A stretch of 20,000 bases of DNA from Bilabrum cf. latius (GCA_965178125.1 OZ237766.1:789628-809627), one strand, 5' to 3'. Counted from the stretch's first letter, positions 565-20,000 are shown. Numbers and translations: made by a program. Notes: a model not told the origin generated them from the letters alone.

Positions 565-1694
565 TTATGCGCCATGGTCCTGCCTCACCGCCACCGCATC
601 CACCCGAATGTCGCTCCAATAGGTCCAGAATCGCAGCGAAAACCCGCTGTCTTCCAGCCATTGGGCGAGAACAGAAGGCCACACCATCTCATCCACAGGC
701 TATGCCATGGCCCGCCCTTCGTTCCAGATACGCAGCTAGGTCTCCGCTGCGGGTATGGAGAAGAAAACACGGGAGCCTATCTTGGTATGCTTGCGAAGGA
801 CCGCAAACATGTCCTTGTACAGCTCCTTCGGGATGTGCTCGAAGGAGTCCACCATGGTGATCACGTTGAAGGTACGCCCCAAGTCAAGCGTCGTCGCGTC
901 GTGCTGGACGAACTGGATGCCCGGGCTGTGCTCCCTGGCAGCAGCTAGCAAGCCCTGCGACAAGTCAGACCCGACCAAGTCCTTCACGTGCAGCTCATCT
1001 CGAATGAAGCGCGTCGTAAGACCGTTACCACAACCTAGATCAAGCACGCTCTCTGTGGACTTGATACGCACCACGTCCCTAAGCGCCTTATGGTATGCTG
1101 CAAACGCGCCGGCAGCTTGCCAGGCTCGTACCACTAGTTCATCCGTCTTTTCGCATTCATAGTGTAGAAGTCCCCAATTTTATCCATGTCCTTGGACTTT
1201 GTGTCGTGCTCATACAAGTTTGCACGGCCCAGCTTGCTCCATTCGCTGCTTGGTAGCGACTGAGTGGCAGAGGTTTTAGCTTGAAGGGCTCTGTGTTGAA
1301 GATCAGATCATTGTCTTTCTCGGAGCCTGCAGATTTGGCTGAAGTGCCTTTGGCATCACACTTCTCCGGAGAAGGACACACGGGCCAAGCATCTGCACGA
1401 GCAGTGGCGTACTAACACACGCACGGCGCACAAGATGGAGATTGCTCCTGTTCGCCAGACCGAAGTAAAACGGCTTGCCGCTACTGCGCACGCGAGTATG
1501 ACTCATGCCGGTACGAATGAGTGTGCACTCTAGAACCACATGATTAAATATCGGCTGTCCTTCGAAGCCTCTGGCCTTTCCGACGGTTCAGGCCCATCTC
1601 CCATCAGGTTACAAGCCACAAATCCGAAGACTACACCTACAGTGCCAGTGATGATGAGGTGAAGTATAGAAAAGCGGTGGTTATTGCTCCGCAT
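565..1694 (-). CDS. Class I SAM-dependent methyltransferase with N-terminal signal anchor; frame-disrupted (indel and/or intron, possibly a pseudogene)
   Basis: Core motifs VLDLGCGNG, LVGSDLS, FVQHDA, FNVITMVDSFEHIP. The frame reads through TAG at 736-738 and 700-702 (ET*LRIWNEGRAMA*PVDEMVW...FWTYWSDIRVDAVAVRQDHGA) to TAA at 565-567. ATG at 1694 gives MRSNNHRFSILHLIITGTVGVVFGFVAC (TM). Joining the parts needs a frameshift near 1100 and bypass of TGAs at 1503-1505 and 1308-1310. Confidence 0.7.
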
Positions 1695-2145
1695 GGATTC
1701 TATGGCGTATTCTTAGGCTGTGGGAGGCAACCGTTCGGCGCCGGGTTCCGGCGGCGGTTTTAGTCTTCAAGAAGTTCTTCTTGAAAGTTCAACACGCTAC
1801 AAAGGACCTTTGCAAACCCCCCGCCCTAATCAGTCATTTCGCGCACGTTTCGCAGGCCTGGTGTCAGCACTCTATTGAGAAACCTTAACCACTGCATGCT
1901 CCGCGTTCACGACATTCCTGAAGTTCGCGGGACTAAGTGAAATTGACGGCATCACACCATCCTCCGGCGGCGGTCGCAACCGGGAGATGCGACCACTGGC
2001 AAGTTGGTCGCACCAAGACAACGGATTGCAGTGCTGTATCCAGGAGAGAGGCGAAGATCGGGTGATTTCTTTGTGGCATCGCTCGCAATCCATTTGATAT
2101 ATTGCCCCTTTATCGTGGGGACGATCGACCTGCGAGGCACGAAGG

Positions 2146-4056
2146 ATGAAAGTCAGGCAAGCCCGTTCAAGACATGGACCTCCCAAACAATACTTGTCAA
2201 TGAAGGCATGGTACCTGGTGCTAGTGACAGTGGGAGTGTGCATCGCAATTTTTGTGGCAATTGTATAGGTTGCTCCTCCTGGTAGCTCTTGGACTCAATG
2301 TAGTGGAGCAAATTGTAGTCCCACCACGCAGGATTTGGCAGATAAAGACTCAATTATAAGCGCGTCAGAGCCTTCGAAAGCACATATCCTGATGTCGTTT
2401 GATGGCCCTGATGTAGCTGGCTTCCCAGTGGCCGCAAGATCGATCTTGATGGCCACGGCAGACCCCGCGCTGGTTCATTTCCACCTGGTCACGCCGCAGG
2501 CATCTGCCGCCAAGGTGCGTTAGGCTTGCACGTCTTGTCTTGACGGCATCGGCGGAATCGATTCATCAGGCGCAGCAGCATGCAGCACTGGGTAGCCGCA
2601 CCAAGGGGTGTTTTGCTGCGAAGACCAAGTACACTTCCTCCGCGGCGTGGACACAAGTACGACCACGGCTGTGGGTATCGCGGCCAAGCGGGTCTCCTCC
2701 CCTTTCAATGCGGCCCGGTTCGCAGGGATGGATGCAATGGTGGATGTGGCAGACCGTTTTGTGTACATGGACCCCGACATCGCAGTCGCAGGTGATGTGC
2801 AGGAGCTGGTGCACATGGACCTGGGGGGTTAGGCCGCCGCCCTTGCACGGATCCTGCACGTCAAGGGCGAGCAGAAGCAATCCATGTGCTCGGTAAAGGT
2901 GGGAGTGGACTGTAACGGACCTGGCGTGAGAGAGCGTTTGCTGGGGCTGGGAGTGGATACCAAGAAGCTGTCCAAAGAATGGGTGGGTAACGCTGGGATC
3001 GTGGTGATCGATGGAGCCAAATGGGGGCAGCAGCGGCTCGGCGACGCCTCCCGCGAGTGGATGGCCAGGAATGAAGGGGGCAAGATGTGGTAGCTGGGCA
3101 CGCAGCCGCCCACAAACCTGGCACTCCTAGGAAACAGGGCGGAGATAGATCCTCGTTGGAACACGCCTTGGATACGGCTTGGTCGCACGTCAGAAGGGGA
3201 TGAGGCCCCACTGCTGATGCATTTCCCCGGAGAAGAGTATAAGGCATGGCGGACTAGCCCAAAGAACATGGCCAAAGTCATCAAGGGGCACTGGGCCGCC
3301 CAGCGTTACTACGACCTTAGCGTCCTGTACCACCGCGCGTGTTTCGTGGGGGTGGGCAGCGAGCCGGCACCAGAGGCAGGGGAGGGCACCCGGCGATGGG
3401 GCTGGGATGCAAAGACAGGGATACGGGTACCACCACGGGAAGCTGGGGTGCTCTCACGGAGCGCAGACCCGTTCCGCTTTCGCCGCGAGCCCGCTGTGCT
3501 TGTGGTGGTTGCTCTGGATGGGGAGGAGCGGGAAGTGGCAAATCTGATTGTGGGGGCCGAGAAGAGCCTGGCCTCGCCCTGGCCCTGGACCGCGCTGCAG
3601 GTGTTTGTGGCCGCGACGAGTGAAAAGGTGGTCAATGTGGTACGAAGGAAAGCTGATTGCATCCCGGGAGGCACGGGCGAGGGCGAAGAGTTATCGATGG
3701 AGACGTGCAGGTCCATTCGTGGAGTTGTCATGGGCACCCCGATGCAGCATGGCGACCATGGGGGTGGGCTATAGATAACCGGTGCATCGGTTGTGTGTCG
3801 CGATGGTGGCGAGTGGGACCCGTAGGGGGCTAGACCGCTAAGGGCTGGCATTTGGCGGGAGACCCAAGGGGCCTACATGCGCGGAGGTGCACCAGACAGG
3901 CTGGGCGATCGGTTTGGAGCAGTCGAAGGTGCCCTTGGAGAGCTGCCCAGCTATGTGACGAGGGCCATCGTGGTGCCGTGGCCAGGTGGCGGGACCGTGG
4001 TGGGTGACGCGTGGGAGGCACTGCATGGGCCTGGCTCGTGCTACCAAGCAGGCTAA
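2146..4056 (+). CDS. Glycosyltransferase family 8 (GAUT/GATL-like) type II membrane protein, 636 aa with TAG read as sense
   Basis: One frame from ATG 2146 (MKVRQARSRH...WYLVLVTVGVCIAIFVAIV TM) through TAGs at 2266, 2521, 2593, 2830, 3091, 3772 and 3823 to TAA 4054-4056. Motifs FVYMDPDIAVAGDVQEL (DxD), GNAGIVVID, LGTQPP, MHFPG...KAW. Collinear with the paralogue at 14941-16884. Confidence 0.9.
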
Positions 4057-4282
4057 GCTCATGTAGCCCACCGTTTGGTTGGGTTGCGGTTCAACAGGGG
4101 CTCCATGTACGTGCAATGGCCACAAGTGATCTACCCCGTTACAGTACACTACAGTCCGAGGGTTCGTAGCAAGTCACCTTCTCTGTATCTCCCCACAGCT
4201 GGTACAGGCTGGTTGTACCACTCCTTTACCGTGTGCATCTGGAGTAGAACAAGCTGCTCCGTGGTGATGACCTACGCGCTGG

Positions 4283-6658
4283 TCAGTGGCGTTTCTTGTG
4301 CAACCGCTTGAGCTGCTCCGTGGTGATGGCCTCCGGGTCATGCTTGGTCAGCGGCTGCATCGCCTGCGTCACCTGCTCCTGGGTGAGCACCGTCCCGGCA
4401 GGTACCCCGAGTCCAGAGTCCCAACCGTCCGGTACTACTGGCTGCGGCAGGTGGTGCGCCACGATGCGGCCTCCGATGGCCTCGAGCGCCATCGGCTCCA
4501 CTGGGGCATGCGCACCCCTCGGTGTGTACGTCATCTCCCCCACATATACCTTGCCGTTCACCTCGAACAGATCCACGCGCACAAACGGGAAGGGCTCCGA
4601 GAGCTGCTGGGCGATGCGCACCATCTCTGCCAGCTTGGATGGGGGTTGAGAAGCTTCCTTTGCTGGGTACGGGTACTCGAACTCAACCACGTCTGGCAAG
4701 AAGGTCCAGTCGGGCAAGTAGAACCCCCGCTTATTCTTGCCTTGCTCGAAGCGCCCGTCCACTTCTTGCACGTAGATCACGCTGCCTCGGGAGCAGAAGA
4801 ACTTGTAGTCTGCTGGGATGGCGCCCCCTTCGTACAGCCGCTCCAGGATCATCGACCGCCGCACATGGTCATACTGTTTCTCGCGGCCGTTGCCCTGGCG
4901 TCGTTTTGTCACCTTAGATAGGACACGGTCGAATATTTCGCCGGAAAGCCCCTGCCCCTTGCAGCCCGGCAAGCCAAGCTCTTTAGCCACGTTTATGAAG
5001 TAGCCTTGGCAGATGATCATCTTGCCATCACGCAGGATGGCATTGACGCCAGCCAAGTTGCTGGCCTTGAACGCAAAATCAGACAGCCCGTCCACCGGAG
5101 GCCGGAAATTCGCAGCCACCTCTGGAAATACCACGCCCAGTGTATCCACAGAATGCCCTTCCCCAATCGCTAGGCGTGCAAAGTGCTTCACAGATGCCTT
5201 GTCTGTGAAGGGGGCATAGTTGGTTTGTCCCTAAGACGCTCCCATTCGCACGGTGAGGTCGGTCAAGCGGATGCCATCTGCCCTGGGAGGCTCCCTCGGG
5301 TTGCTGCGCACCTCCCCAACAGGCACAGATGGACGAATGGGCCCTGGATGGAACCAGTCTCTGAAATAGCGGTAGTACCACACGTACTGCAGTCGCTCAT
5401 ACTCCACGGACTCCATCCCGGGCCTAGCCACATACCTGCACTCCAGCAGGCGCAGCGTCTCCTGCTTCACCGTCAGAGGGTTCGGGTCACCGCCAGGAGG
5501 ACATACAGCCAACTCGACCCCAGCACTAGATGGTGCACGCTGCCCCGGCACCGGCAGTCCCTCCCACGGCTTGATCCTGTCCACTAGCCGCAGCAGCACG
5601 GGCGGTGAGGGAGCCATGGAGCTTCCTTGCCTGACTGAGGCCGGACAACCAGGAGAGGAGATTCGCAGGGCACCCTGGCCTGCCTCTGCTTCCCGCAACA
5701 GGCCCACTGAGACTGAGTCCATGGGTTGCACAATGATACTGGAGGGGAAGAATTCGGTAACAGATCCCTGGGTCTAGGTCAGGGCATCCCTTTGCCCCCC
5801 TTCATTCAGAGGGCACCTCCAATCTGACCCTGCCAGTCTCCACCGCTATCCATGCACGAGCAAGACCTCAGCACTAGCCGCGCCAGCACCAACTGGCATG
5901 GATGAACCCCTTACTCTCGATGACATCCCGCCCCCGGAAAGCACAACTGGCCTGGTGGTCCCGTAGCCGTCTTCATCCTCGAAACCCTACATGAGCTGCA
6001 TTGGATCCCGTGACGCTATCAGATGGGGATCCGGCAGCACCAGCACTGCCCCCGGTGCCGGCTGCTGCTCCTCTTCCTATCCGGTGGCAGGCAGAGAGGC
6101 GCACGAGGCCAGGGACACGAGCACACGGCGGTCAGCAGCCGAGCGGGTGTCGTCCTCCCACCGAGCTGGGGCGCGAGAAGCGGCGGACCGAGTCGTGGAC
6201 TGCTTCCCCTCCTTCCTAGTCTGCTGGTCCGCCACTCGAATGATGGAGTCGCAGGTACCGGTGGGCAGGTAGCACGGGCACGAGCCCTGAATCTCGGTCC
6301 AGGCAAGGTCGTCTGCCAGCACGGCAAAGCGGATGTCAGAGCTACGCGAAGCTCTCTCATACAAGGACCGTGCACCGATCAGGAAGCTAGGTGTGTTCGC
6401 ATAATCAACAGGGGCAGCAACCAGAAGGGTCAAAGCCGTCTGGTCAGCCTGTGCTCGTCTGAGCGTAGGCTATGATCTCCCCAGTATCGCCCATCCTGCA
6501 GCCACACAGACAATAGCAATCAAAACGCTATTTGTGTAACGACTAGCCACGACGCTGCAGCAAGAAGTGTACACCTGCGTGGCCGTGGATCCAACAACTC
6601 GTCGCAGTGATTGCTGTTTCTCCTTGCCTTCTCTAGAACCAGTGTGTCGACGTTGCAT
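4283..6658 (-). CDS. Fusion of signal anchor + degenerate GT8-like domain + TupA-like ATP-grasp, 791 aa with TAG read as sense
   Basis: ORFs 6470..6658, 6077..6433, 5231..5731 and 4283..5191 share one frame, joined only through TAGs (6470, 6077, 5987, 5846, 5774, 5231), ending at TGA 4283-4285. TupA-type motifs FTDKASVKHF, FAFKASNLAG, MILERL, DYKFFC, FPFVRVDLF, YVGEMTYTP. The N-terminal half resembles the neighbouring GT8s (FLIGARSLY, VLPDPHLIASRD, LLVHG*RW). Confidence 0.85.
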
Positions 6659-8168
6659 GCTCCAGCTGATGTGCGAGGAGCCTCGTGGAACAGTTTGTAT
6701 ACTCTCTGGTGCTGGATGCTAGCGCACTACTAGGACTCCCCAGGGTGCAACCGGTAGCACGCTCTAAAAGTCTGCTAGTGGTAATAACAGAAGAGACTTA
6801 AAATTTGCTAGACATCTGGCCAAAAGAGGAGCTGAATCGAACATTACGTTAAGACACGCGCGCCAGCATGAGATATGCAATGCAACTTCGGGGCGCAGTC
6901 TCGAGCCCAAACGGAAAGTACAACTCAGGCATATGCAAACCATTTAAATGGCCCGTCTTACCTTTGTAGGGCTAGCGTCTACTTGAGTTTCCGAAAGGGT
7001 CGAATAGTGCGTTGGGAACCCAAAATCACCCACAAAAGGTAAGGTAACGTGCACTTTCCCCCGTCGGCCCGTCGGCCGAGTCCGGTCGCATAGGAAGGAT
7101 GTGGTCGCACTGGGTTGCCAATGTAGTCGTCCAAAATGTGGCATCAGCTGGACAGTTGCTGAAGGCTGGTCCTAACGATAAGGTTGCAGTTCGACAACAG
7201 GGGGAACATGAGACGCAGGCCACCAACGAGCTGGGACGAGGTGGCAGCGGGCAGCGGACAGGCCAATGAGTAGGGGAGGTGATGGAATTTGCAGTCAGGT
7301 GGGGAGGTCTGATGTGCCCAGAGATGATCACGAAGGCAGGCTGCTGCTGGAAGTGTAGCGCTGAGAATGATTTGGGGGGAGGGAGGGAAGTGTGGCAGAG
7401 ACGAGTCAGCACCGTGCTCTGCACATAAGCTTAGCGTGTCTGTTAATTGAGAAGCGTGTTATATGGTTGGCAGCGAACGGATTCCCGCACAGTCGATCCG
7501 GAGTCCGGACGGGAGGCATGAAGAGGTGGAGTGAGACGGGCCTCCGCATTTCTCTACTTTATTGGAACCATCGCAACTGACGGCGATCGGGCCCGGATCT
7601 GACCATGTGTAGGCAGGAGTAACAAAGTCAATTGTATCAGAGTTCATCGCAGTTGTGCCAGCCACACCAACCCAAACCACTGGTGGATTGGCCATTGCAG
7701 GGCATTGCCACTTTCACGCATGAGCACCTTGCTTCAGGCTACCACCCACTGGAGTAGTACCAGTGCCACTAGCACGACATAGCAGTGTTTACCATACAGC
7801 GTAGGTGCCGTGCAAGAAGTATATTTCAGCCGCTCTTGCGTATTGCACGGTAGAAGCTGGTGCTATTCGCAATTTGAAGTTGAGCATAATACATGTCAGT
7901 GAGGAGCCGAAAGACCCACATGCCGGAAAATCATGTATTAGCTGTAAGCTACGGTACACAATGCGAATTCAATGCCCGCCTTCTGTTTCAGGAGTGTCTC
8001 CAACTATAAGTTTGCAGGTAGCGTCAGTTGGTCCCTGTCACTTGTTGCCCCCGATTCACCCAAAGGTTCTTTTTCCCGATTATTATTTAGTTTTAATGTT
8101 AGCAGGTACTTCATTGGTGTGGGGTGACTTGCAGGTCGCTTGGTCATCGTTTTGCCCAGAGACAACTG

Positions 8169-11100
8169 ATGGCAGCCATGCTATTCGCCGGAGCTGTTCT
8201 AGTCTTGGTGGCGCTCTTCGCGAGCAATGTAGTTCTGCCGTCTGTAGCTAATCGAGTTAAGCTAAGTCCTCCTGGCGCTACGCGAGGCCAACAGCCAGCT
8301 GTCCGTGTCGCTGTGCCGGGCGAAGCCCCGAGCACAGGAATAGGCCGGGGGTGCCCCGCCGAAGAGCAATCGCACGTGCTCTTCTCGTTTGATGAGCTGG
8401 ACTTGCCGGGCTTTTTCATCGCCACTTCCTCTGTGTTTGCCAACACCAAGCGGCCGGAGTGCATCAGGGTGCATGTGCTGTGCCCCTCGTAGGCCGAGGC
8501 AGACATCCGGGCCTCGTGCGCCTGCTCCATGCCTCCCTAGGCCTGCGCCTCCCTGCACTTTGTGCGCACGCGGCCCTTGACCAAAACAGTCACTGGCTCC
8601 AACACCCGCGGCAAGCACCTGGACTCCCCGTACAACCTGGGTCGGCTGGAGGCTTTCGACGCACTGGCCCCTTCTGTGGGCAGGATCGCCTACCTGGACT
8701 CTGATGTACTCGTGCTGGGGGATGTGCGGGAGCTCGTGCAATTTGATCTGCAAGGTACCGCGACTGCCTTCGCCTGGGAGCAGGACAGGTCTATGTGCAA
8801 CCCATGGGGGGTCAAGTGCGGTCACCCCGCTCTGAAGCAGGCAGGCCTTACGAAACAGTTGCTGCAGCGCAAGATGGTGGGCAATGCAGGGATCATGGTG
8901 GTGGATCTACAAGAGTGGAGGAAGCAAGATCTGAGCAGACGGGCCCGGCTCTGGTCTCACCTGAACCGCGACGGGGAGCTTTTTCTCCTCGGTTCGCAGC
9001 CGCCCATTATGCTGGCCACCATCAACAGCCGGGCTCAGCTGCCCACTGCCTGGAACCAGAAGAATGAGAAGAAAAACGACACGCAGCTCGTGCACTTTGC
9101 GGGCCCGGATAGGCCCTGGCGGGTGGATCGCCCCGGCCCGTACGCCGAGGCCAAGGCATTCCTGCGATGCCGCATGGGCTACAAAGAGGCCTCCACCTCG
9201 CGTGACCGCAATATGGTGGCTTATTCGAGGTATATGGCGGAGTACGGCGTCAGGACGGAGGGTGAGGCGCTGCCGCAGACCGTCAAAGACGTTCCTCTGC
9301 GTGACCTGCTAGCCTGGCGTGCAAGGCAGCCAGTGGCACAGCGGCTGGGCGTGTTTATAGACAGGGCAGCCCAGAAGCACTACGTCAGGACGGTGCTGGG
9401 GCAAGAGGGGTACTCAACGGAGACGCTCGCTGTGCTTGAGGCAGGACCACAAGGGGATGTAGGCGCGCTGGACAGGGACCTGCTGCCCCGAGGGCTTCTG
9501 GCGAGCTCGTCCTCCTCCACGGTGAGGGGCGGTGGCGGACTAGGTGCCTCGCCGGGGTCTATGCATCTCATCGTGCGGCCGCTGCACATGCCTGATCTGG
9601 TGATACACGTGACGGATGGCGCCGTGGATTCATCCCCCTGGAAGAAGGATGTGGGCCAGGCTGTGACGGAAGGACTGATCCGTAAGTGGCTGGGCGTGGT
9701 GACCCAGCGGTGCCATCGCTGCGAGACAGAGCTACAGAACGCGGGTGTGACGAGGGGGCTGATTGTGGAGAGGGAAGAAGAGTCGCTCGAGGGGCAAGAG
9801 GGGGTGCGCCTGCTGCATGACGGCCTCAAGATCTGGTGCACGAGGGGGGTGCCCATGCTGGTGGAAGTCGAGACGCGTGGAGGGGGCGGCAAAGGGCGCC
9901 GCAGATCGTTCTACACCCCCGGATGGGACCCCCTCCGAGTCAGCAAAAAATACCCGATGGATCCAGCGGCCAGCTCTCGCTAGGCCCCTCTGTTGCTACC
10001 AGAGGCCCTTCGGGTGGCTGCCGAGCTGAGCAAGCCCTTCTCCTTCGTTCGGGTGGATCTGGGCTCGATAGACAACCGCATCGTGGTGCAGCGGTTCTCT
10101 TTCGTGCCAGACGGGGTGGACGGCCCCACCTTTGAGCCCCCTGCCTTTGGATACGCTCTATCTCGGCTCGTGCAAGCCCCCCCTTCGCATGCTGCTGCCA
10201 AAGCCGCCATGCTGCCCTTTGTCAAACAGCAGGAGTGCAGCAAGACCTTGGTGACGGGCGCGGCCGGATTCATCGGGAGCCACTTGTCCAAGGAGCTGCT
10301 GGACAGTGGGCGCCCCGTGGTGGGGATCGACTCGTGGAATGCGCTGGACGAGGAGCACAGCGCGCTGATGGACGCTCGGGTGGCGGGGCTGGAGAAGGAC
10401 AAGGGCTTCCACCTCGTGCGATCAAGCACCTGCAACGTGCATGCCATGGTGGCTCTGCTCAGGGAACACAGGGTCTGCGACATCGTGCACCTCGCAGCGC
10501 AGCCGGGGGTGAGGCGGTCCACTCGCAGGCCCATGGAGACGGTAGAACTCAACGTGGGCTGCTTCGCCAGCATCCTCGAGGCTGTAGCTCGGTTCAACTC
10601 CACCATCCGGGTCGTGTACGCCTCCAGCTCCTCCGTGTACGGGGCCAATGCGGTGTCCCCCTTCGTGGAGACGGCATACCCCGTACCAGCCAGCATATAC
10701 GCCGCTTCCAAAGTGGCGGACGAGGCGTTGGCGCAGTCGTACCGTAACGTGCACAAGCTGAACCTGCTGGGCTTGCGGTTCTTCACCGTGTACGGGCCCC
10801 GGGGCAGGACGGACATGGCTGCGTACATGTGGGCGCGGGCCATCGAGGCGGGTGAGTCCATCAAGGTGTTCCAGACTCCTTCGGGGGTGGAGATGGCCAG
10901 AGATTTCACGTACGTAGGAGACATTGTGAGAGGTATCCACGGGGTGCTGCCTCGACGGGACGTGACGGGCGTGCTCAACATCGGTAAGGGCAGTCCAGAC
11001 AAGGTGTCAGACCTGATCGGCGAGCTGGAGGTGTGCTTCGGCAAGAAGGCCGTGCTGGACAAGGTGCCGCAGCCGCCGGGCGACGTACCGATCACCTACG

Positions 11101-11240
11101 CGGACACGACCAAGATGGCGAGGCTGGTGGGATACCGCCCTGAGGTGAGCTTGTAGGAGGGCATCCGGCGCTTCTGTGAGTGGTTTAAGTCGGACGAGGC
11201 CAAGGCAGTGAGGCGCAAAGCAGCGGTGGCTCTTGGCTGA
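8169..11240 (+). CDS. Triple fusion of signal anchor + GT8 + TupA-like ATP-grasp + UDP-glucuronate 4-epimerase-like SDR, about 1023 aa with TAG read as sense
   Basis: One frame from ATG 8169 through TAGs at 8490, 8538, 9981 and 11154 to TGA 11238-11240. GT8: IAYLDSDVLVLGDVREL, GNAGIMVVDL, LGSQPP, HFAGPDRPW. TupA-like: FIDRAAQKHYV, LKIWC, FSFVRVDL. Epimerase: LVTGAAGFIG, HLAAQPGVR, YASSSSVYG, YAASK, LRFFTVYGPRGRTDMA, RDFTYVGDIV, SL*EGIRRFCEWF. The exact start is uncertain. Confidence 0.9.
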
Positions 11241-11451: not shown

Positions 11452-11723
11452 GTCATGATTGTACAACTAGTGGGTGCGTAAACTGTAAGTTTTGCTACTC
11501 TAGATCGTTGGTTCACCATGAGTCGGCTGCCTAGGCTCGGGCATGCACGGCCTGCACTCGTACTTGGTCGATCCTGCACTGTTGCATTACCCGCAAGCCC
11601 AAGAACGGCACTGCTGTTGCCACAAGTATGTGTGGTCTAGGCTAGCCGTTCATCGAGACCTCACAAGAGCACTCCATGGCACGCGGAATCCGGTTGAACC
11701 CCTCTCTCTGCCCCAGAGGAGGC

Positions 11724-13508
11724 TCAAAGTGGATCTACATGTGCCCTACCTTGCGACTTAACAGTGCCTTGCTCCACATAATTCTTGGTGATCGCAGCCC
11801 TGAGTATATCCACGGCAGAGGGACCCGTGAAGTCCGCTCGATACAATGCGTCTGTAGGCCCACGAGCCACGCCGTAGAAATTGAGCATCTCGGCAATCGC
11901 TCGCACTCCCTCCATCATCTCTCGCACCTTGCTGTCGGGAATCGCGCGCAGAATCGGAAGCAGCTTGCCTTGGCGAAACATCGCGTAATTGACACGCACG
12001 CTGGCCAGGTGCCAAGGGATGAATTCTCGAAACGGCATCTCCACATTGTCTTGCACGACGGCAGGGACACATCCAGATACCAGCATGTCTACCAGCCGGT
12101 GACTCCACAAGTTCGGATGCCACCCGGGGAGGTACAGACAAAACTTGGACCGCTTCAGCAAGTCCATGTATCCAGATACTCTGCCGTTTACGTAAACGAC
12201 ACCATCCGTCTCCTCGTTCATGTGCCCGTACAGCCGAAGGCCTGACTGACGCACTCCCTGCGAGTACGATGAGGACTCATGTTTCGGATATAGTACAGAG
12301 CCCACGAAGGTCATCGTGACGGGCCGGTTCTACAGGGGGGGCCATCGGTGCGTGGACTTCAATGCGTACCTCCCTATCGTGCCCACATCTTTATGCGCCC
12401 GGAACCCTAACCCTAGAGGGTAGCTTGGTGCAACGGTGGCAAAGATTGCGCCATGAAGACCAAAGACGTGCTGCATCCACGTCCTGCACGTCTTGAGATC
12501 TCGCCACGCCCACTTTGCGTGATCGATGGCCCACTCCCTCCAATCCATACCGGATGACGCGAGATGCTTCGCGGTAAGGTTCCAGCCAGCGCCTGCCTTC
12601 GGTGTCTGTGGAATATCTGTTTGCATGCCGAGCAAGACTTCGTTGAGGCTCCTCCCTCCCCCAGTGACTATGATGAAGTCTGCGCCGCCAGATTGCTCCC
12701 ACCGGCGTGCGAGATATGGACGCCGCAAGACACGGCGAACCACATGAGCCATGGTGTCTGCACACACACGGGTCTTGATCGACGGGGACATGGGTACCTC
12801 GGCTGTCCTCTCGATCTTCAGGGCCGCAAGGGCGATCGACTGCGTGTGCAGAGGCAGCACAATCAGGTCGGCCTGCTCCGGGCCCGCAGCCCACCCTGTG
12901 GTAGCAAGTGCACTGCTCGAAGTCTTCGTCGCAACTGACGATCTCAGAGCGGCCGCTTGCTGCCGCTGGAGGGCATCAAGTATTGCCCACTCGGATGCAA
13001 ACCCTGCCTCTGCCGTTATGGACGTTCGGAAGTCCTTTGGTAGCATACCGATACCAGATAAGCCTTTGGGATCTCGTAGATCCGCAAAACCGGCTGCTGC
13101 AAAATAGCCGGATTGATCAAGCGGGCTTGTGCCCCACTTCTTGCAATTATCCTTCGTAGGCTTCGTGCGCATACATGTAGTAGGGCACATGCGGGATTCT
13201 TCTCTTATTTCTTCCCCAAGCACGAAAAACTGCAGCTGCCCACCGGCTTCAGTCGCAGCAGCGTTCAGCCGCTGCTGCACTACACGTACGACTTTGTCGT
13301 AGGGCTGTTCTCCCCGCACCTGCATCGGTGCTTGTGTTGAGACTACTGTTTCTTTTTGCCGAATTAATTGCTACCCATTTGGGCTACTGGCACCGCGCGA
13401 TGGGATATAGGCAGCCATAAGCAGCGCAAGTGCTGCCACTACTGCTACTACTGCAAGAAGAAATAAGGCTAGACGGGAGCGATTTTTCATCTTGGCTCTA
13501 GCAGGCAT
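11724..13508 (-). CDS. Exostosin-family (GT47) type II membrane glycosyltransferase, 594 aa with TAG read as sense
   Basis: ATG 13508 (MPARAKMKNRSRLALFLLAVVAVVAALALLMAAY, TM), in frame through TAGs at 13371 and 12330 to TGA 11724-11726. Motifs EQADLIVLP, RWEQSGGADF, FRAHKDV, RSKFCLYLPG, SHRLVDMLVSGCVPAVVQDNVEMPF. Confidence 0.9.
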
Positions 13509-13739
13509 TTTGTTTATTATTTATTCCTGATTGCGGCTCTCTTCTCTTCCAACTATGCACAAGATTGTGGCAAGGTACCTGATTCGCGTCCATTCGTAAA
13601 TGATAATCACACACAACAAAACCTTCAACTTTCGGCGCCGGTATCCGTCTAAAACTTGCGCTACTCCCGAGTCCGCCATATTGACTATATTCCTGGGCGC
13701 TTTGTCAGCATCCTGCCCCTGCTGAAGTCCATTGGAAGT

Positions 13740-14679
13740 GGCAGTGGACCAAGTGCTACTTCAGTGCCAGACCTGCTCTGATCCGGATCGATCGGTGACA
13801 AGAGGGAAAGGACCTAAGCCCACCACTCATAGGTCTGGAGATGGGAGCGGGTGGCGGGCTGGGTAGCGGGAGTGGAGAGCTGTCGTCGCGTGCCGGGGGT
13901 CGCAGCCTGGCGCAAGCGATGCCAGTGGTCGCAAGCAGCAGAGTGTCAGGCACAATGGGCGTGCCTGCCACGTTGGAGGTCACACAGAGTCAGGAGCTGC
14001 ATCTGAATCGTTGGCTGCAACTAGCTGCCGCCGTGATGCTTCGCGCTGTTGCTGCCATGGTGCTCGGGGGGCCAGCTAGCAGTTCTGAGCGCGATCCGAG
14101 CTCACGAGGCACAGAGCGCATGCCGGCGATCGGCGGCGGCGATGGGATATATCATGAAACGCTCCATAAAGTCGTTTGTGGCGGCACATCGCCGTCTCCC
14201 CGAATCCTGGATCGCTCTCGCGGTCGGCTTGCGCTGCGGTAATGTGGAGGGAGGGAGGGCGAGCAGGCCGCTTGGAGTCCTCACTCCCCAATCGAGCCGG
14301 CAGTACACGCATGCAATCGAATTTATTTCTTAATTGGTTCCATTCAAAGCGCTGTTGCATCTGCGATAGGAGCTAACTGGAGTGCTGACGCGTTGTGCCT
14401 CGAGGCTGGTGGCGTTGCAAGCTGCTGTTGGCCCGCTCATTCGACTCACCGATGCTATGTCGCCTATCTCATCATGAAATTGCATGTTTCATACTCAATC
14501 AAGTAGTATTTCGTGGAATCACTGCTGCGGGCATTGAGCTTGCAATTGGAGGTGACAGTATTCGCGCGCCTACGCCCGCAAGGCCCCTAACTAATACCCC
14601 GCCCGGACGCCTTTTAGTATTACTATTTATGTTAGTATGGACAGTGGGGCTGGACGATTTGTCTTTGCTTCTGCTGAGT
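13740..14679. repeat. Long copy of the dispersed repeat seen at 381-497, with about 850 nt between the conserved ends
   Basis: 13740-13783 matches 381-424 and 14638-14679 matches 456-497. The interior is unassigned. Confidence 0.7.
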
Positions 14680-14940
14680 ATAAGATCGATGGCGACAAAA
14701 CCAAGGATGCCAGCGCGGGGGTGAACCGGTGGGAAATCAAATTTACTACAAACATCAGGTCAAATACTAAGACTAAACACGGCGATGCATGCAGTAGAGG
14801 TGGATCCGGGGGCCCTCAGCTCCGGCTGGGAGGGGCGCGGGTTGGCGGGAGAGCCCGACTGAAATAGACTAGTCTACCTTACGGTTGGCAGGCAATGGCT
14901 CTAAGGGTAATTCCGGACCCGCTTTGCCGCGACCCCCTAC

Positions 14941-16884
14941 TCACTATGCTCGGGGGCACAGCGCGATGCCGGCTGGATCTACCTTGAACTACACCTCTGG
15001 ATGCACGAGCACGATGGCTGCCCGCACGTACTTCCACACCTTTCGGAGGCCCTGCCGCGCCATGGTAGCTCGTTTCTCATAGCGGTCACCCGACTCCCGC
15101 CCCTCCTGCCACTCGTTCTACTAGTTTTGCTAGGGCCCCCTCAACCCTGTGCCAGCGAAGTGCCGCAACTCATCCTACCCCAGCATACGAAAGGGCAGCA
15201 GCTCCTCCAGTCCCTGCCCTCCAACCTGTCGGCACGCCACGAACGGCTCACGCCCATTGATACTTATCTCTCGGCTTGCATGTTTGGTTGGCAACATCAG
15301 CGAAGCACGCGTGGCCACCCCTTGCCCACTCTCCTTGTATTCGGGAGCAGCGCTAATCCTCTCGATGGCCCTGCATGTCTCGTTCGAAGGGCCACTCACT
15401 GACCGCAAGCACGCCTACACAGCATCCTCGTACACTTCCTTGGAATCAGTAACCGCCATCACATGCAGCGCCGTCCACGGCCAGGGTGCTTCCAGCTGTC
15501 GCTCGGCACTCCTCAGAGCCATAAGGAATGCCTCGCCATCTCCTCTCAGCAGCACCATCACAAGCACCACGGGCTACCTCCTCCAATCGAAGGGGACCGA
15601 CTGCCGCGACACAACTCCTGCTGCGGCTGCAGGCACTCGGGTCCCAGTCGCTGGGTCCCACGTCCAGTACACGCTGGATGCCACCCTAGGTGCAGGCGTG
15701 CTGCCCGAACCCACGAAGCAAGCCTCGTGGTACAGCACGCTCAGGTCGTAGTAGCGCTGCGCTGCCCACCACCTCCGCTTCCCCACCAGACGCATGTTTT
15801 CCACACTAGCCCTCCACGCCTTGTGCGAGGGTCCCTTGAAATGCATAAGCTTCGGGGCCTGATCGACACCATACACTAACCCCGCCATGTTCCAACCCGT
15901 GTTCCACGTTTGCGGGATGCGGGCCCGCCTGCCCAGCAGCGCCAGGTTCGTGGGCGGCTGCGTGCCCAGTGTCCACATCTTGCCCCCCTGGTTCCTGTCC
16001 ATCCACGTCTTGGCCTCATCGCCGATGCCCTGCTGCACCCATTTTTGCGTATCGATGACCATAATCCCAGCATTGCCCAGCCACTCTTTCTCGAGGCGTG
16101 ACACGGACATGCCCCAGCTCTGCAGGGACTCCTTGACACGCCGGTTCTTGCAGTCCAAAGCGGCCAGCGCGAAGCACATCGTGGGCCACTTGGTGCCCCG
16201 ATGGCCAGGCCTGGGGCACATGGCAGCCGGCTGGCCCTCTAGCTCCATCCAGACGAGCTCATGCACGTCCCCGATCACAGCGATATCAGGGTCCAAGAAC
16301 GCAATCCTGCGGGCATGAGCGGCCATGGCGTTGATCGCATCAAACCTTGCTGCGTTGAAAGGAGACTTGATTCGCTCCGCAGCCGAACCCACCACGGTTT
16401 CACGGTCCGTGCTGATGCCATCTAGGAAGTGCAAGTGTACGTCGCAGCAAAAAGCGCCAGGCTTGGGTGGATTGCAAGCTGGGCCTTGCAAGCCTAGCCC
16501 ATCTAGGCACCGGGTGCAAGCTCTTCGGACAATATCGTTTGCGCGAGGAGACACGACCAAATGGAAATGGATGAGTGAGGGGTCAGCGGCAGACTGCAGG
16601 ATGGAGCGGGCGGCCACTGCGAATCCTGGCGCATCGGCCTCATCAAACGACATCAGGATATCTACCTACTCTCGAGGTTTTGGTGCTACCTCCAGCCCAA
16701 GTCCGGGTGGCATTGGAGATTTGATAGCCTCTGTAACCCCAGCGCGGTGAGATATTGACAAGGCTATCGTAATGGTAGCCGTGACCAGCACCAAAAGAGC
16801 TATCAAGACGCGGTGCTGGACGAAAACTGCAACCCACCGCGACCTTGCCTGTGGTGACCGCCGCTTGCTAGAGCTTTCCATCAT
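14941..16884 (-). CDS. Glycosyltransferase family 8 type II membrane protein, paralogue of 2146-4056, 647 aa with TAG read as sense
   Basis: ATG 16884 and TM VLIALLVLVTATITIALSI. One frame through TAGs at 16666, 15574, 15415, 15175, 15130, 15121, 15118, 14989 and 14944 to TGA 14941-14943. Motifs IAFLDPDIAVIGDVHEL, GNAGIMVID, LGTQPP, HFKGPSHKAW, and WAAQRYYDLSVLYH (identical in the paralogue). Confidence 0.9.
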
Positions 16885-17690
16885 CAAAAAGCCAAAATAT
16901 GCCTGTGGAATCCCGTGGAACTACACTGCCGCTGCACGTATTGTGGCGACGAGATGCTTCCAACCGCTGCGACGCCGCCTCCACTGCTTGGCCGACCAAA
17001 GCTTTGCAAGCCCAGCACCTCGTAATGAAAGGTTGTTATTCTAAACCGTGTCGGGAAGAAGTAGTTGAGCGCGGGAATCCAAACAGGGAACTCCGAGATA
17101 ATCATTCCTACTTTGCAGCATAGTAACGTGTGGTTTTGTATATCAGACGCATACTGCCACAAGCATGCTCAGCCCAAAGCTAGGGAGGACTTCGCCAAAC
17201 CGGCGGACAATCCGTTTATTCAACTAGCTATTATTGCTCATGCGTTTTTGATCCAGCCATGGCTTCAGTCTCGGCCGCGGCCATACGCTCTAAGATGCTG
17301 CGAGTACTTGCGAGAACCGCACCTGATGCGTCTTGCTTGCGGATACCTCGAACTGCGCGACAGTTCTCGCCACCGCACTTACGTCGGAAACCCCGATTAT
17401 GTTGCTACAACAGGCTTTGCACATTTTGGCTGGATCGGATGGCCAGGGCTTGGCGCGCTCTCGATCCACCTCCGTTTGTTGCCGATTGCAAGCCAAGCTG
17501 AAGTGGTTGCAACTTCAAAATTAGCAATTCTGTGGCATGTTGCGTGCTATTTTGAGCGCTGAATGACATCGAATTGGTCCCCGCTGCACAGGAGCGGAAC
17601 GACCGTGAGCTGGGTCGGGCTCAATAAAGTACTGCTTCATTTTTAGGTACTGCTCGAGTGCAGCTCCTGGTTATATCAATTTAGCTCGCA

Positions 17691-19007
17691 ATGCCGTCGC
17701 CCGCCCTTCCGCGGCCGCTGCTGAAATCTACTTCCCGTCAGGTGATCGTTATCAGCGTCTTGGTTCTTGCTATTGTCACGCTCCCGTTGGTGATTCCATC
17801 ACTAGCAGGGTTTCGTGTGAACCGGGGCTCGCAGTACGCTGTGCAAGTACCGACAGAGCCGCCAAGCGCTTCCGTTGATTCGCCTGTCTCGTCGGGCTAG
17901 GGAGCACAGAACCTCGAAGGTCCAAAACCTCCATTACAGTTAAAGCGGGACGGAAAATGGAGAGGCGACATGTCGGTGCGGGATGAAGGAATCACAGTGG
18001 TCCTGTTGAACTTTAAGCGTCCCGAGCATCTCAAGAAGATCGTACGGGCTTACCTCGAGATGCCAGAGGAATTCATCCGCGATGTTTACGTGTTCAACAA
18101 TGACGATATTGATTTCCGGGATATGTTCGACCCCTTGCAGGGAGGGAGCTCTCGGGTGAGGGTAGTGGACGCCCACGCCAACCTTGGCATCGGGAATTCA
18201 CGATTCTTTGCTGGGACCCTGGCGCGGACTAGGGCCGTCCTGACGCAAGATGATGACTTGCTCTTGACTAGGTAGGGAGTGGAGCGTTTGTACGAGCATT
18301 GGAAGCGGGAACCGGACCGCATCCATGGCGCCTACAGCCGAGGCCCAACTCTGAATCGTAAGGCTGGGAGCAGCAAAAGGGGCGCATCCGTGCTCTCGAC
18401 CGACGACGCCTCCCCCGTCGAGGAGCGCATGGCCCGGAAGGTGCGGTACGAGATGTACAACCACCATCTTACGGAGGGGCAGTATCGAAGGCAGAAGCAG
18501 CGGGTAGAGCAGCTGCACAGCCAGGCAAACGGCGCAAACAGTGTGTGGGTCAGCGGGTCCGCCTGGAACGCGCCCTCGATGCCTCTCCGGTACGATGGCA
18601 TGACAGAGGAGGAGGATCTCGCCTCTGCCTGCCCCATCCTAATCACGAGGGTGGTCATGTTTGACCGAGCGAGGGCCTACCAGTACTTCCGCTGGGTCTT
18701 GGAGATGCAGGACACGGTGCCACAATAGAAGCCCTTTGGTCACGGGGAGGACCTATTGCTGAGCCTCCTGTCGATCCGCGAATCGGGGGGCAAGCTGAAC
18801 CGCGCTTGGAGGGACGTCTCCAGTGAAATCTCGGAGCTGCCGCAGATGAAGGTTGGCGTGTCTACTGTGAACAGCGACCACCTTGACTTCCGAACCATGT
18901 TCCTGCAGCTGGCGTGCGACAGGTTAGATTTGCCGTGCTGGGACTGGATCATGCTGGACATACCTACCGCGAGGAAGAAGCCCAAGCCCACCACTCAAGG
19001 CTAGTGA
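17691..19007 (+). CDS. GT64-like (EXTL2/EPC1-type) GT-A glycosyltransferase, type II membrane, 438 aa with TAG read as sense
   Basis: ORFs 17691..17900, 17970..18275, 18279..18728 and 18756..19004 share one frame, separated only by TAGs (17898, 18273, 18726, 19002), ending at TGA 19005-19007. TM VIVISVLVLAIVTLPLVI. Motifs ITVVLLNFKR, VYVFNN, NSRFF, RTRAVLTQDDDLLL, WKREPDRIHG, GEDLLLS. Confidence 0.85.
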
Positions 19008-19093
19008 TTAGAACCTCCTGACGGCAGACTGGGAGGTGTTACGTTGGGAGCTTTCTGTCACGTATGACATCGTGACTTCCATGAAAGCTTCTT

Positions 19094-20000
19094 TTACAGA
19101 CTCAACCACCCAAATACAACCAGAAATGGCATCGAACACAGAGCCGTCGCCATGTGCCTGAATCCACCGATGGATTTGTCCATCAGCGGAGACACACAAC
19201 GAATTCTCCATATCTTACCGTATCTTCCATCCAGGGTGGTCGCAGTGGGTGGTCTCGTTGAAGCAACGCAAAGTATCTCCAAGTTAGTTGGGATTAGCTG
19301 GACGCCCGTGCTTGAGAGCGCGGCCTGTGGGGCTCGCTGCAGCTCAAGGTGCCTCCAACCAATATCGATCGCGGGCAGCCCGTCGGCCTCCTGCCGAATG
19401 TAGGTGTTCATGCTCTTTGTGGATGACCACCGTCCAAGACGCTGCGCAATGCCGTGCTCGATGCCCAGCCGCACCATCGTGGTGGTGCTGGTGATGCGGA
19501 AGCTGTGCCCATGCAACCACTCGCGTCATCATGGCGGCTTGCACAGCGCCGCACCAGCCGTACCATGTGCCGCATCTTGCGGCGACCGTACAATGCGATC
19601 TCCGGGAACTACAACACCTGACTGTCGTGACAGGCGTGGTGCAGGTCGCGTGGTGAGGTAACTGGGATACCTGCTGCGGTCAACGTCGTCACGACGTGCC
19701 GGACAAGAAGGTGGACGGGGCAGCATGTGCTACCCTGGACACCATATGTATTCACCGACACGGGGAATCGAGCTGTAATTGCCACCGTGGCAGGCCCACC
19801 CGCCTTGGTGAACCGCAGGTGCAGGGAGCAGCTGATCACCTTGTTGTCCTCGATTGCCCAGGATACATGCCTGGGGCGGTGCGGGGCAGAGGCAGCCCGG
19901 GCCTCTCCCGTTGCCTCACCCAGGGGCATAGTGCCCCCAAACGCCAGTGCACCAGCCAACTAGGCTGCACTTTCGCCGGGGGGTGGATGGCTGGAACTCG
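19094..20000 (-). mobile_element. Decayed tyrosine recombinase of a DIRS/Ngaro- or Crypton-like transposable element, running off the window edge
   Basis: Motifs in the expected order: ALAFGGTMPLGEA (R-box, with Pro in place of Arg), LHLRFTK, CCPV, GHSFR, LGRWSS...YIR. A frameshift near 19520-19530 separates the CPV-containing and HSFR-containing frames. Confidence 0.8.

What the first reader, a model, noticed from the sequence alone, without database searches (positions are those of the whole stretch)
4054..4056. UAA is decoupled from UAG and still appears to act as a stop
Seen: the GT8 gene at 2146 meets its first TAA at about the aligned position where its paralogue ends in TGA (636 vs 647 aa; GDRFG...YVTRAIVV vs GDRYE...YVRAAIVL shortly before both ends). 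Reading through would extend it to 4311, overlapping the convergent gene that ends at 4283. The methyltransferase also ends at TAA (565-567). No internal TAA occurs against 32 TAG, although CAA is used freely. Established: in most eukaryotic reassignments (table 6: many ciliates, hexamitin diplomonads, some ulvophyte algae) UAA and UAG change together, so a split is the unusual case.
Basis: partly seen in the sequence, partly recalled or inferred. Interest (0 to 1): 0.85.

Follow-up and report, generated by a model that had tools for sequence, protein, structure and literature searches.

The report
UAG codes glutamine, UAA still stops
In this stretch of a GC-rich eukaryote the stop codon UAG is read as glutamine inside every gene while UAA and UGA still end genes, a rare but already described kind of genetic code.

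Summary
Seven genes fill the window: a methyltransferase, three GT8 genes (one fused to an ATP-grasp and an epimerase), an ATP-grasp gene, GT47 and GT64. Together they carry 34 in-frame TAG, 0 TAA and 0 TGA in 4333 codons. Five end in TGA and two in TAA.

TAG is a sense codon. It lies inside Pfam domains, and 25 of 34 TAGs sit unchanged in contigs of a run that also shows a spliced GT-AG intron. Close relatives carry Q opposite 5 of 10 window TAGs. Three of four premature ends of their ORFs fall on window CAG.

TAA acts as a stop. The methyltransferase orthologue ends at the same residue as the window gene that ends in TAA. GT8a ends where its paralogue ends. If TAA followed TAG, 5 to 16 in-frame TAA were expected.

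This code (UAG=Gln, UAA and UGA stops) is in print for Iotanema spirale and two phyllopharyngean ciliates. Here the genome is GC-rich and TGA is the commoner stop.

No genome was held, so tRNAs, eRF1 and genome-wide tallies remain untested. Two genes end TAG-TGA, which is unexplained.

The parts
4054..4056 (+). TAA that ends GT8a (the finding)
   Evidence: It is the first in-frame TAA or TGA after 636 codons. The paralogue ends at the matching place. Read-through would add 84 codons to 4311 without a coding-like GC1 (0.48 against 0.65 in the gene).
2146..4056 (+). GT8a gene, 636 codons, 7 in-frame TAG (2266, 2521, 2593, 2830, 3091, 3772, 3823)
   Evidence: Pfam Glyco_transf_8 E 1.1e-19 across TAG229 and TAG316. 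TAG positions. Orthologue fragments P0123 and P0121 are 83-86% identical.
565..1134 (-). Methyltransferase ORF (last exon or whole gene), 2 in-frame TAG (736, 700), ends in TAA at 565-567
   Evidence: Pfam Methyltransf_25 E 6.9e-16. Orthologue P0272 has Q opposite both TAGs and ends at the same residue...HGA. No ATG start lies in the ORF, so an upstream exon is likely (inference).
4283..6658 (-). TupA-like ATP-grasp gene, 791 codons, 6 in-frame TAG, ends in TGA
   Evidence: Pfam ATPgrasp_TupA E 2.7e-17. X7 contig 4175-6771 has 0 differences. Counts.
6772..6961 (-). GT-AG spliceosomal intron upstream of the ATP-grasp coding region
   Evidence: An X7 contig joins 6771 to 6962. The skipped ends CT..AC on the plus strand read GT..AG on the minus strand. 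DNA run X1 is colinear across it. Sequence.
8124..11240 (+). GT8 / TupA-like ATP-grasp / NAD-epimerase fusion gene, 4 in-frame TAG, ends in TGA
   Evidence: Pfam hits for all three domains. Orthologue fragment P0124. RNA-like contigs start at 8106. The likely ATG is at 8169 or 8178 (inference).
11724..13508 (-). GT47 (exostosin-like) gene, 2 in-frame TAG, ends in TGA
   Evidence: Pfam Exostosin_GT47 E 9.9e-23. Contigs 11499-13552 (X7) and 11477-13553 (X6) have 0 differences.
14941..16884 (-). GT8b gene, 647 codons, 9 in-frame TAG; the last sense codon is TAG, followed directly by TGA
   Evidence: Orthologue fragment P0122. X7 contig 14724-17074 ends below the ORF's first ATG at 17121, so the start was set at 16884.
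17691..19007 (+). GT64-like gene, 438 codons, 4 in-frame TAG; the last sense codon is TAG, followed directly by TGA
   Evidence: Pfam Glyco_transf_64 E 1.6e-9.. X7 contig 17597-19018.

Best explanation
The window comes from the nuclear genome of a GC-rich eukaryote that decodes UAG as glutamine and keeps UAA and UGA as its two terminators. The TAA at 4054-4056 is the true stop of GT8a. The likely mechanism is inferred from the published cases, not shown here. A tRNA-Gln with anticodon CUA, derived from tRNA-Gln(CUG), pairs with UAG but cannot pair with UAA. The release factor eRF1 has lost or weakened its recognition of G at the third stop position while still recognising UAA and UGA. New TAG codons then arise mostly from CAG by C-to-T change at tolerant sites. 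Shown here: UAG is sense, glutamine is the best fit, UAA and UGA are absent in frame, and two TAA and five TGA gene ends are present. Inferred: the tRNA, the eRF1 change, and that the rule holds genome-wide.
For: (1) All 7 genes carry in-frame TAG: 34 TAG, 0 TAA and 0 TGA in 4333 codons. Pfam domains run across TAGs. (2) The TAGs are in RNA. Run X7 has a spliced GT-AG joint at 6771/6962 that DNA run X1 lacks, and its listed contigs cover 25 of 34 TAGs with 0 differences. This excludes editing and assembly error for those sites. Four studies hold the stretch. (3) Glutamine. Of 10 window TAGs that have an aligned residue in orthologue fragments of close relatives (76-86% identity), 5 face Q, 2 S, 1 W, 1 K and 1 T. 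Canonical Q codons face Q in 30 of 48. Of 4 premature ends of the relatives' standard-code ORFs, 3 fall on window CAG and 1 on a window TAG. Q scores best in 5 of 5 standard matrices. (4) UAA as a stop. Orthologue P0272 of the methyltransferase ends at the same residue as the window ORF that ends in TAA. PDB methyltransferases of 215 aa leave about the same tail after the last aligned block. GT8a ends within a few residues of its TGA-ended paralogue after a shared motif. In-frame TAA is 0 against 15 and 23 off-frame, and 5.3 to 15.8 were expected if TAA were coupled to TAG. (5) Under table 6 only GT8a grows at its 3' end. The GT47 5' extension gained by reading TAA lies outside the RNA-like contigs, which start at 13552/13553. 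(6) The same code is documented elsewhere: PMC5304391 (abstract, sections 7 and 9) and PMC11687900 (abstract, sections 4 and 10).
Against: Only seven genes and two TAA ends could be examined. With the most conservative codon-bias assumption the absence of in-frame TAA is only P = 5e-3. No DNA of relatives could be fetched, so the codon at the relative's conserved methyltransferase stop is unknown. No orthologue fragment covers the GT8a C-terminus (none of 261 candidates scored). The 3' end of the GT8a transcript was not mapped: the one contig across the TAA (X6, 2058-4616) is of uncertain kind and runs on into the convergent gene. For the amino acid, a crude matrix built from the same alignments favoured K (logL -29.6) over Q (-33.4). 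The single TAG in a well-conserved distant-homologue column (epimerase codon 1011) faces E in 75 of 120 and Q in 6 of 120. The GT8 TAG columns are variable and uninformative. Two genes end TAG-TGA, so it is not shown that UAG never terminates. No tRNA gene is in the window and no eRF1 was available.
Confidence: 0.8

Rival explanations
1. UAA is reassigned together with UAG (a table 6-like code with UGA as the only stop). TAA is merely very rare because the genome is GC-rich, so the two TAA 'ends' are read through.
For: The frame after the GT8a TAA stays open for 84 codons to 4311, and the frame after the methyltransferase TAA has no TGA for at least 80 codons. A-ending codons are disfavoured (A/G ratios 0.16 to 0.46). 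The sample is small.
Against: CAA is used 51 times against 110 CAG, so 5 to 16 in-frame TAA were expected and none is seen. The methyltransferase orthologue stops at exactly the same residue. The GT8a paralogue stops at the matching place. Chance alone gives about 0.2 for 84 open codons at the window's TGA and TAA frequencies (my estimate from the counts). GC1 drops from 0.65 to 0.48 after the TAA.
Confidence: 0.06
2. UAG has a dual, position-dependent meaning: glutamine inside genes but still a (leaky) terminator at gene ends. UAA and UGA are plain stops. The TAG-TGA pairs at the ends of GT8b and GT64 would be working tandem stops.
For: In 2 of 7 genes the last sense codon is TAG, directly followed by TGA, both within a TAGTGAnTAG string. 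Given 0.78% TAG per codon, the chance of two or more is 1.3e-3, although this test was chosen after seeing the data.
Against: The same pattern is expected if these are relics of former UAG stops that survived the reassignment only because a back-up stop followed, costing one extra Gln. GT8b has another TAG only 15 codons before its end, which dual-meaning codes tend to avoid near true stops (PMC11687900, section 4). No protein or ribosome data are available.
Confidence: 0.12
3. UAG encodes an amino acid other than glutamine (Glu or Lys being the next candidates), with UAA and UGA as stops.
For: Epimerase TAG1011 faces E in 75 of 120 distant homologues. A crude matrix built from the alignments themselves ranked K above Q. 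One orthologue residue opposite a TAG is K.
Against: Of 10 orthologue residues opposite TAG none is E and only 1 is K, while 5 are Q. In 3 of 3 cases where a relative's internal stop lies opposite a window sense codon, that codon is CAG. Q is best in 5 of 5 standard matrices, by wide margins.
Confidence: 0.04
4. The in-frame TAGs are not translated at all: the genes are pseudogenes, or assembly errors, or the TAGs are edited to CAG in the RNA. The TAA question is then moot.
For: Nothing beyond the general possibility. Distant homologues show the TAGs at variable columns.
Against: There are 34 TAG against 0 TAA and 0 TGA in frame. The same sequence appears in runs of four studies. 25 of 34 TAGs are unchanged in contigs of the run that shows splicing. 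Relatives have in-frame stops at other glutamine sites of the same genes.
Confidence: 0.02

Closest known systems
Nuclear code of Iotanema spirale (Metamonada: Fornicata): UAG = Gln, UAA and UGA stops (PMC5304391; abstract and sections 7 and 9 read)
   Same: The same three assignments: in-frame UAG at glutamine positions, no in-frame UAA or UGA, and UAA used as a terminator.
   Different: In Iotanema UAA is the main stop (104 UAA against 15 UGA ends in 126 genes, section 7), and UAG was never seen at an inferred gene end. Here TGA ends 5 of 7 genes, the sequence is 53-64% GC, and two genes end TAG-TGA. Whether the organisms are related is unknown. No marker gene is in the window.
Phyllopharyngean ciliates Hartmannula sinica and Trochilia petrani: UAG = Gln, UAA the preferred stop (PMC11687900; abstract and sections 4 and 10 read)
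   Same: UAG alone is reassigned to Gln. UAG makes up 18.5-31.8% of Gln codons there against 17% here (34 of 195). Most or all genes contain it.
   Different: In those ciliates UAA ends over 85% of genes and UGA 8-13% (section 10). Here the locus is a 20-kb multi-gene stretch with roughly 1-kb spacers, repeats and a GT-AG intron, at 58% GC, with TGA the commoner stop. Ciliate macronuclear genomes are AT-rich by my recollection, which no call tested.
Rhizarian exLh and three TARA phyllopharyngean genomes: UAG = Leu, UAA stop (PMC5304391 abstract; PMC11687900 abstract)
   Same: UAG is decoupled from UAA, and UAA is kept as a stop.
   Different: The amino acid is leucine there. Here no orthologue residue opposite TAG is L (0 of 10) and Q is the best fit.
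NCBI table 6 lineages (many ciliates, hexamitin diplomonads, some ulvophytes): UAA and UAG = Gln
   Same: UAG is read as glutamine.
   Different: The defining in-frame UAA is absent here (0 in 4333 codons) and TAA ends two genes.
Code 15 (TAG = Gln) of crAss-like phages (PMC9523058; only the search listing and start of the abstract seen)
   Same: The same formal table: only TAG is reassigned, to Gln.
   Different: Those are bacteriophages. Here the genes have eukaryotic features: a spliced GT-AG intron and GT47/GT64 families.

Membership tests
UAG=Gln / UAA+UGA=stop nuclear code (Iotanema-type) | In-frame UAG inside conserved coding regions of expressed genes | tested here: met
   34 TAG in 7 of 7 genes. 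Pfam domains span them. 25 of 34 are unchanged in contigs of a run with a spliced joint.
UAG=Gln / UAA+UGA=stop nuclear code (Iotanema-type) | UAG corresponds to glutamine in homologues | tested here: met
   Q faces 5 of 10 TAGs in close orthologues, against 30 of 48 for canonical Q codons. 3 of 4 internal stops of relatives fall on window CAG. Q is best in 5 of 5 matrices. Against: E at 75 of 120 distant homologues for one column, and a crude matrix that favoured K.
UAG=Gln / UAA+UGA=stop nuclear code (Iotanema-type) | No in-frame UAA; UAA marks conserved C-termini | tested here: met
   0 TAA in 4333 codons where 5 to 16 were expected if coupled. The methyltransferase TAA lies at the orthologue's end. 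The GT8a TAA lies at the paralogue's end. Only two TAA ends were examined.
UAG=Gln / UAA+UGA=stop nuclear code (Iotanema-type) | UGA is kept as a stop and never occurs in frame | tested here: met
   0 in-frame TGA against 93 and 71 off-frame. 5 of 7 genes end in TGA.
UAG=Gln / UAA+UGA=stop nuclear code (Iotanema-type) | UAG is never used as a terminator | tested here: inconclusive
   GT8b and GT64 end TAG-TGA. Sequence alone cannot tell whether TAG or TGA terminates.
UAG=Gln / UAA+UGA=stop nuclear code (Iotanema-type) | tRNA-Gln with anticodon CUA present and no tRNA with anticodon UUA | not testable with these tools
   No tRNA gene in the window, no Rfam hit, and no genome held.
UAG=Gln / UAA+UGA=stop nuclear code (Iotanema-type) | eRF1 N-domain changes that weaken UAG recognition | not testable with these tools
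   No eRF1 gene is in the window, and no other sequence of the organism could be fetched.
Table 6 code (UAA and UAG = Gln) | In-frame UAA at glutamine positions, with UGA as the only stop | tested here: not met
   0 in-frame TAA. A TAA sits at a conserved terminus.
Context-dependent stop/sense codes (Condylostoma, karyorelicts, Blastocrithidia) | The codons that terminate also occur in frame as sense codons | tested here: not met
   Neither TAA nor TGA occurs in frame. A dual role of TAG alone stays open (see the rival explanation).

The most novel reading that the evidence does not exclude
This is an unrecognised, independent origin of the UAG-only reassignment in a GC-rich eukaryote. UGA, not UAA, is the main terminator, so UAG was probably not a rare stop when it was captured. 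That would fit an ambiguous-intermediate route better than codon capture under AT pressure. The TAG-TGA ends of two of seven genes would then be either fossils of former UAG stops rescued by a back-up stop, or a sign that UAG still terminates at gene ends (a dual meaning restricted to one codon).
Probability: 0.2. Interest if true: 0.7.

Novelty: new member of a known kind. Interest (0 to 1): 0.45.

Why it matters
Codes in which UAG and UAA have different meanings show that the eukaryotic release factor can tell the two codons apart. They are used as natural models for freeing UAG for genetic-code engineering (PMC5304391, conclusions in the abstract). Every case read for this report has UAA as the dominant stop. 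A GC-rich organism with UGA as the commoner stop, and with both DNA and RNA-like public runs, would be a contrasting case. It could be used to test how UAG was captured, and to find the tRNA(CUA) and the eRF1 changes directly. For annotation the point is practical: standard-code gene callers cut these genes into fragments, as the Logan-derived fragments P0121 to P0124 of the relatives show.

Tried and rejected
- More DNA of the organism or of relatives was sought and nothing was found. The scans were metagenome contigs with the GT8 alignment (152 pattern matches, 0 confirmed), genome contigs (44 matches, 0 confirmed), viral contigs (77 matches, 0 confirmed), and an exact 24-nt piece of the multi-copy repeat in metagenome contigs (0 matches).
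- No orthologue fragment covers the GT8a C-terminus (261 candidates, none scored at E <= 10).
- No listed holder of the stretch is on record as RNA. X6 to X8 are only guessed to be RNA. X7 is treated as RNA-like here because of the spliced joint.
- Contigs cannot show transcript ends, so the 3' end of the GT8a transcript remains unmapped.
- No tRNA and no Rfam family is in the window.
- ORFs in the repeat-rich spacers gave no Pfam hit (0 of 6).
- Distant GT8 homologues (146 used) place all the TAGs in variable columns, which is uninformative.
- Named distant homologues are too scattered to place the organism: Closterium, a pelagophyte, Sphaerothecum, Chlorella sp. A99, diatoms and others.
- Literature searches turned up no GC-rich eukaryote with UAG-only reassignment. 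This covers only the held library, and supplements were not consulted.
- A green-algal type TGTAA poly(A) signal was looked for by eye downstream of GT8a and the ATP-grasp gene and was not seen. No conclusion was drawn from this.
- Searches were my own coordinate slips, corrected.

Full report
**What is in the window.**
The 20-kb window is 53-64% GC. Read with TAG as a sense codon, it holds seven genes on both strands, about 1 kb apart:
- a SAM methyltransferase (565-1134, minus strand);
- GT8a (2146-4056, plus strand);
- a TupA-like ATP-grasp gene (4283-6658, minus strand);
- a GT8 / ATP-grasp / NAD-epimerase fusion (8124-11240, plus strand);
- a GT47 exostosin-like gene (11724-13508, minus strand);
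- GT8b (14941-16884, minus strand);
- a GT64-like gene (17691-19007, plus strand).

Under the standard code each of these falls into pieces. No tRNA and no Rfam family is present.

**It is a eukaryotic, expressed locus.**
Eight listed runs from four studies hold the stretch. Contigs of X1, X5, X6 and X7 were laid on the window.
- One X7 contig joins 6771 to 6962. The skipped ends read GT..AG on the minus strand, which is the strand of the ATP-grasp gene. DNA run X1 is colinear across this stretch.
- I therefore treat X7 as RNA-like, and 6772-6961 as a spliceosomal intron upstream of the coding region (sequence).
- X7 and X6 contigs begin and end close to gene borders: 11499-13552 and 11477-13553 for GT47, 14724-17074 for GT8b, and 17597-19018 for GT64.
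- I used these borders to trim 5' ORF extensions. Five of the 39 ORF-level TAGs lie in an intron or in untranscribed or untranslated leader sequence.

**The observation.**
- At ORF level there are 39 TAG, 0 TAA and 0 TGA in 4518 codons.
- With trimmed models there are 34 TAG, 0 TAA and 0 TGA in 4333 codons, and all 7 genes contain TAG.
- Five genes end in TGA and two in TAA: GT8a at 4054-4056 and the methyltransferase at 565-567.
- By frame within the ORFs, TAA occurs 0 / 15 / 23 times, TGA 0 / 93 / 71 and TAG 39 / 53 / 27.
- Under table 6 only GT8a grows at its 3' end, to 4311. That is 29 nt into the convergent gene.

The only difference is 34 (or 39) TAG in place of 32.

**TAG is translated, and as glutamine.**
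- Pfam domains run across TAGs: GT8 across codons 229 and 316 of GT8a, the epimerase domain across codon 1011, and the methyltransferase fold across codons 133 and 145.
- 25 of 34 TAGs lie in listed X7 contigs with zero differences. RNA editing and assembly error are thus excluded for those sites.
- A search of 1.84 billion representatives found standard-code ORF fragments of close relatives, all from Logan assemblies and unnamed. P0123 and P0121 match GT8a at 83% and 86% identity. P0122 matches GT8b and P0124 matches the fusion. A further search found P0272, the methyltransferase orthologue at 77% identity.
- Ten window TAGs have an aligned orthologue residue: Q five times, S twice, and W, K and T once each. 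P0271, a cluster twin of P0122, was not counted separately.
- The window's canonical Gln codons face Q in 30 of 48 cases, so 5 of 10 is what a Gln codon should give.
- The relatives' ORFs break off four times in the middle of conserved protein. Three breaks fall on a window CAG and one on window TAG150. The relatives therefore carry in-frame stops at glutamine sites too.
- Q is the best amino acid in 5 of 5 standard matrices.

Three results go the other way or do not help.
- A crude matrix estimated from these same small alignments ranked K above Q. I attribute this to zero counts in the small sample.
- In the epimerase domain the column of TAG1011 holds E in 75 of 120 distant homologues and Q in 6.
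- The GT8 TAGs lie in variable columns of 146 distant homologues.

Since none of the ten orthologue residues is E, I keep glutamine.

**TAA is a stop.**
- The methyltransferase orthologue P0272 is uninterrupted. It carries Q at both window TAG sites and ends at exactly the same residue (...VRQ[D/T]HGA) as the window ORF that ends in TAA. Solved methyltransferases of 215 residues leave a tail of similar length after the last aligned block.
- GT8a and GT8b are 45% identical. They share the YVTRAIVV / YVRAAIVL block and end 26 and 21 residues after it, GT8a with TAA and GT8b with TAG-TGA.
- The 84 codons after the GT8a TAA lose the coding-type GC1 (0.48 against 0.65). At the window's TGA and TAA frequencies, an open stretch of that length has a chance of roughly 0.2 (my estimate).
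- If TAA shared the meaning of TAG, 15.8 in-frame TAA were expected from the CAA:CAG ratio, or 5.3 from the most extreme A/G ratio. None is seen, giving P = 1.4e-7 to 5e-3.
- The 5' extension of GT47 that appears when TAA is read as sense lies outside the RNA-like contigs.

The limits are clear. There are two TAA ends and seven genes. No orthologue covers the GT8a C-terminus. Transcript 3' ends are not mapped. There is no tRNA or eRF1 information.

**How it most likely works.**
This part is inference from the published cases (PMC5304391, section 9; PMC11687900, section 4). A tRNA-Gln with anticodon CUA, one change away from tRNA-Gln(CUG), reads UAG but not UAA. A UUA anticodon would read both codons, which is why the two usually change together. 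eRF1 must have lost UAG recognition while keeping UAA and UGA. The orthologue residues W, K and S opposite TAG could each be one base change from TAG (TGG, AAG, TCG). This fits TAG evolving as an ordinary codon at tolerant sites, but the relatives' codons were not seen.

**Comparison with what is known.**
The abstract of PMC5304391 states that UAG and UAA can be decoupled. Iotanema spirale uses UAG = Gln with UAA as its main stop (104 UAA against 15 UGA ends, section 7). The rhizarian exLh uses UAG = Leu. [quoted passage not shown] In all of these UAA is the preferred stop (section 10). The window's code is thus a known kind. It differs in base composition and in stop usage, with TGA at 5 of 7 ends. 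UAG supplies 17% of Gln codons (34 of 195), close to the 18.5% reported for H. sinica. The organism could not be placed, because named homologues are distant and scattered. Four literature searches found no GC-rich eukaryote with this code. Supplements were not consulted.

**Unexplained.**
GT8b and GT64 both end ...TAG TGA, within a shared TAGTGAnTAG string. Given the TAG frequency, two or more such ends among seven genes has P = 1.3e-3, although I chose this test after seeing the data. Either these are relics of former UAG stops that were tolerated because a back-up stop followed, or UAG still terminates at gene ends. Sequence alone cannot decide.

**Verdict.**
The phenomenon is a new member of a known kind, not a new kind. 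My confidence in the full explanation (UAG read as glutamine, UAA and UGA as plain stops) is 0.8; for the narrower point that UAA is a stop while UAG is sense it is about 0.85. Interest is moderate (0.45), and would be higher if the organism proves to be an independent, GC-rich origin.

Noticed in passing
14941-14946 (minus strand) and 19002-19007 (plus strand): Two of seven genes (GT8b, GT64) have TAG as their last sense codon, followed directly by TGA. Both lie within a TAGTGAnTAG string. The chance estimate is 1.3e-3, from a test chosen after seeing the data. They may be relics of former UAG stops or working tandem stops.
   Followed up: partly
6772-6961 (minus strand): A GT-AG intron lies in the leader of the ATP-grasp gene. 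It is seen as a joint in an X7 contig but not in DNA run X1. The other six genes appear intronless over their coding regions, except that the methyltransferase ORF lacks an ATG and probably has an upstream exon.
   Followed up: partly
1335-2001, 13341-14674, 18677-20000; also 370-500 against 13729-13783 and 14638-14682: The spacers hold multi-copy repeats. Contig depth in X1 is 5 to 20 times the single-copy level, with many variant letters. Two short direct repeat pairs are 87-93% identical. ORFs there gave no Pfam hit.
   Followed up: partly
8124-11240 (plus strand) and the whole window: One gene fuses a GT8 transferase, a TupA-like ATP-grasp and a UDP-glucuronate-4-epimerase-like domain. The window as a whole is a cluster of sugar-modifying genes (GT8 three times, GT47, GT64, ATP-grasp twice, one methyltransferase). 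Such clustering is unusual for a eukaryote. The closest epimerase homologues are only 36-45% identical.
   Followed up: no
GT8a codons 41 and 229; fusion codons 123 and 139: Where close relatives do not have Q opposite a window TAG they have W, K, S and S. Each could be one base change from TAG (TGG, AAG, TCG).
   Followed up: no
11154-11156 (plus strand): TAG1011 in the epimerase domain sits where 75 of 120 distant homologues have Glu (motif SL-E-EG). It is the only TAG in a well-conserved column and it is not a Gln column.
   Followed up: partly
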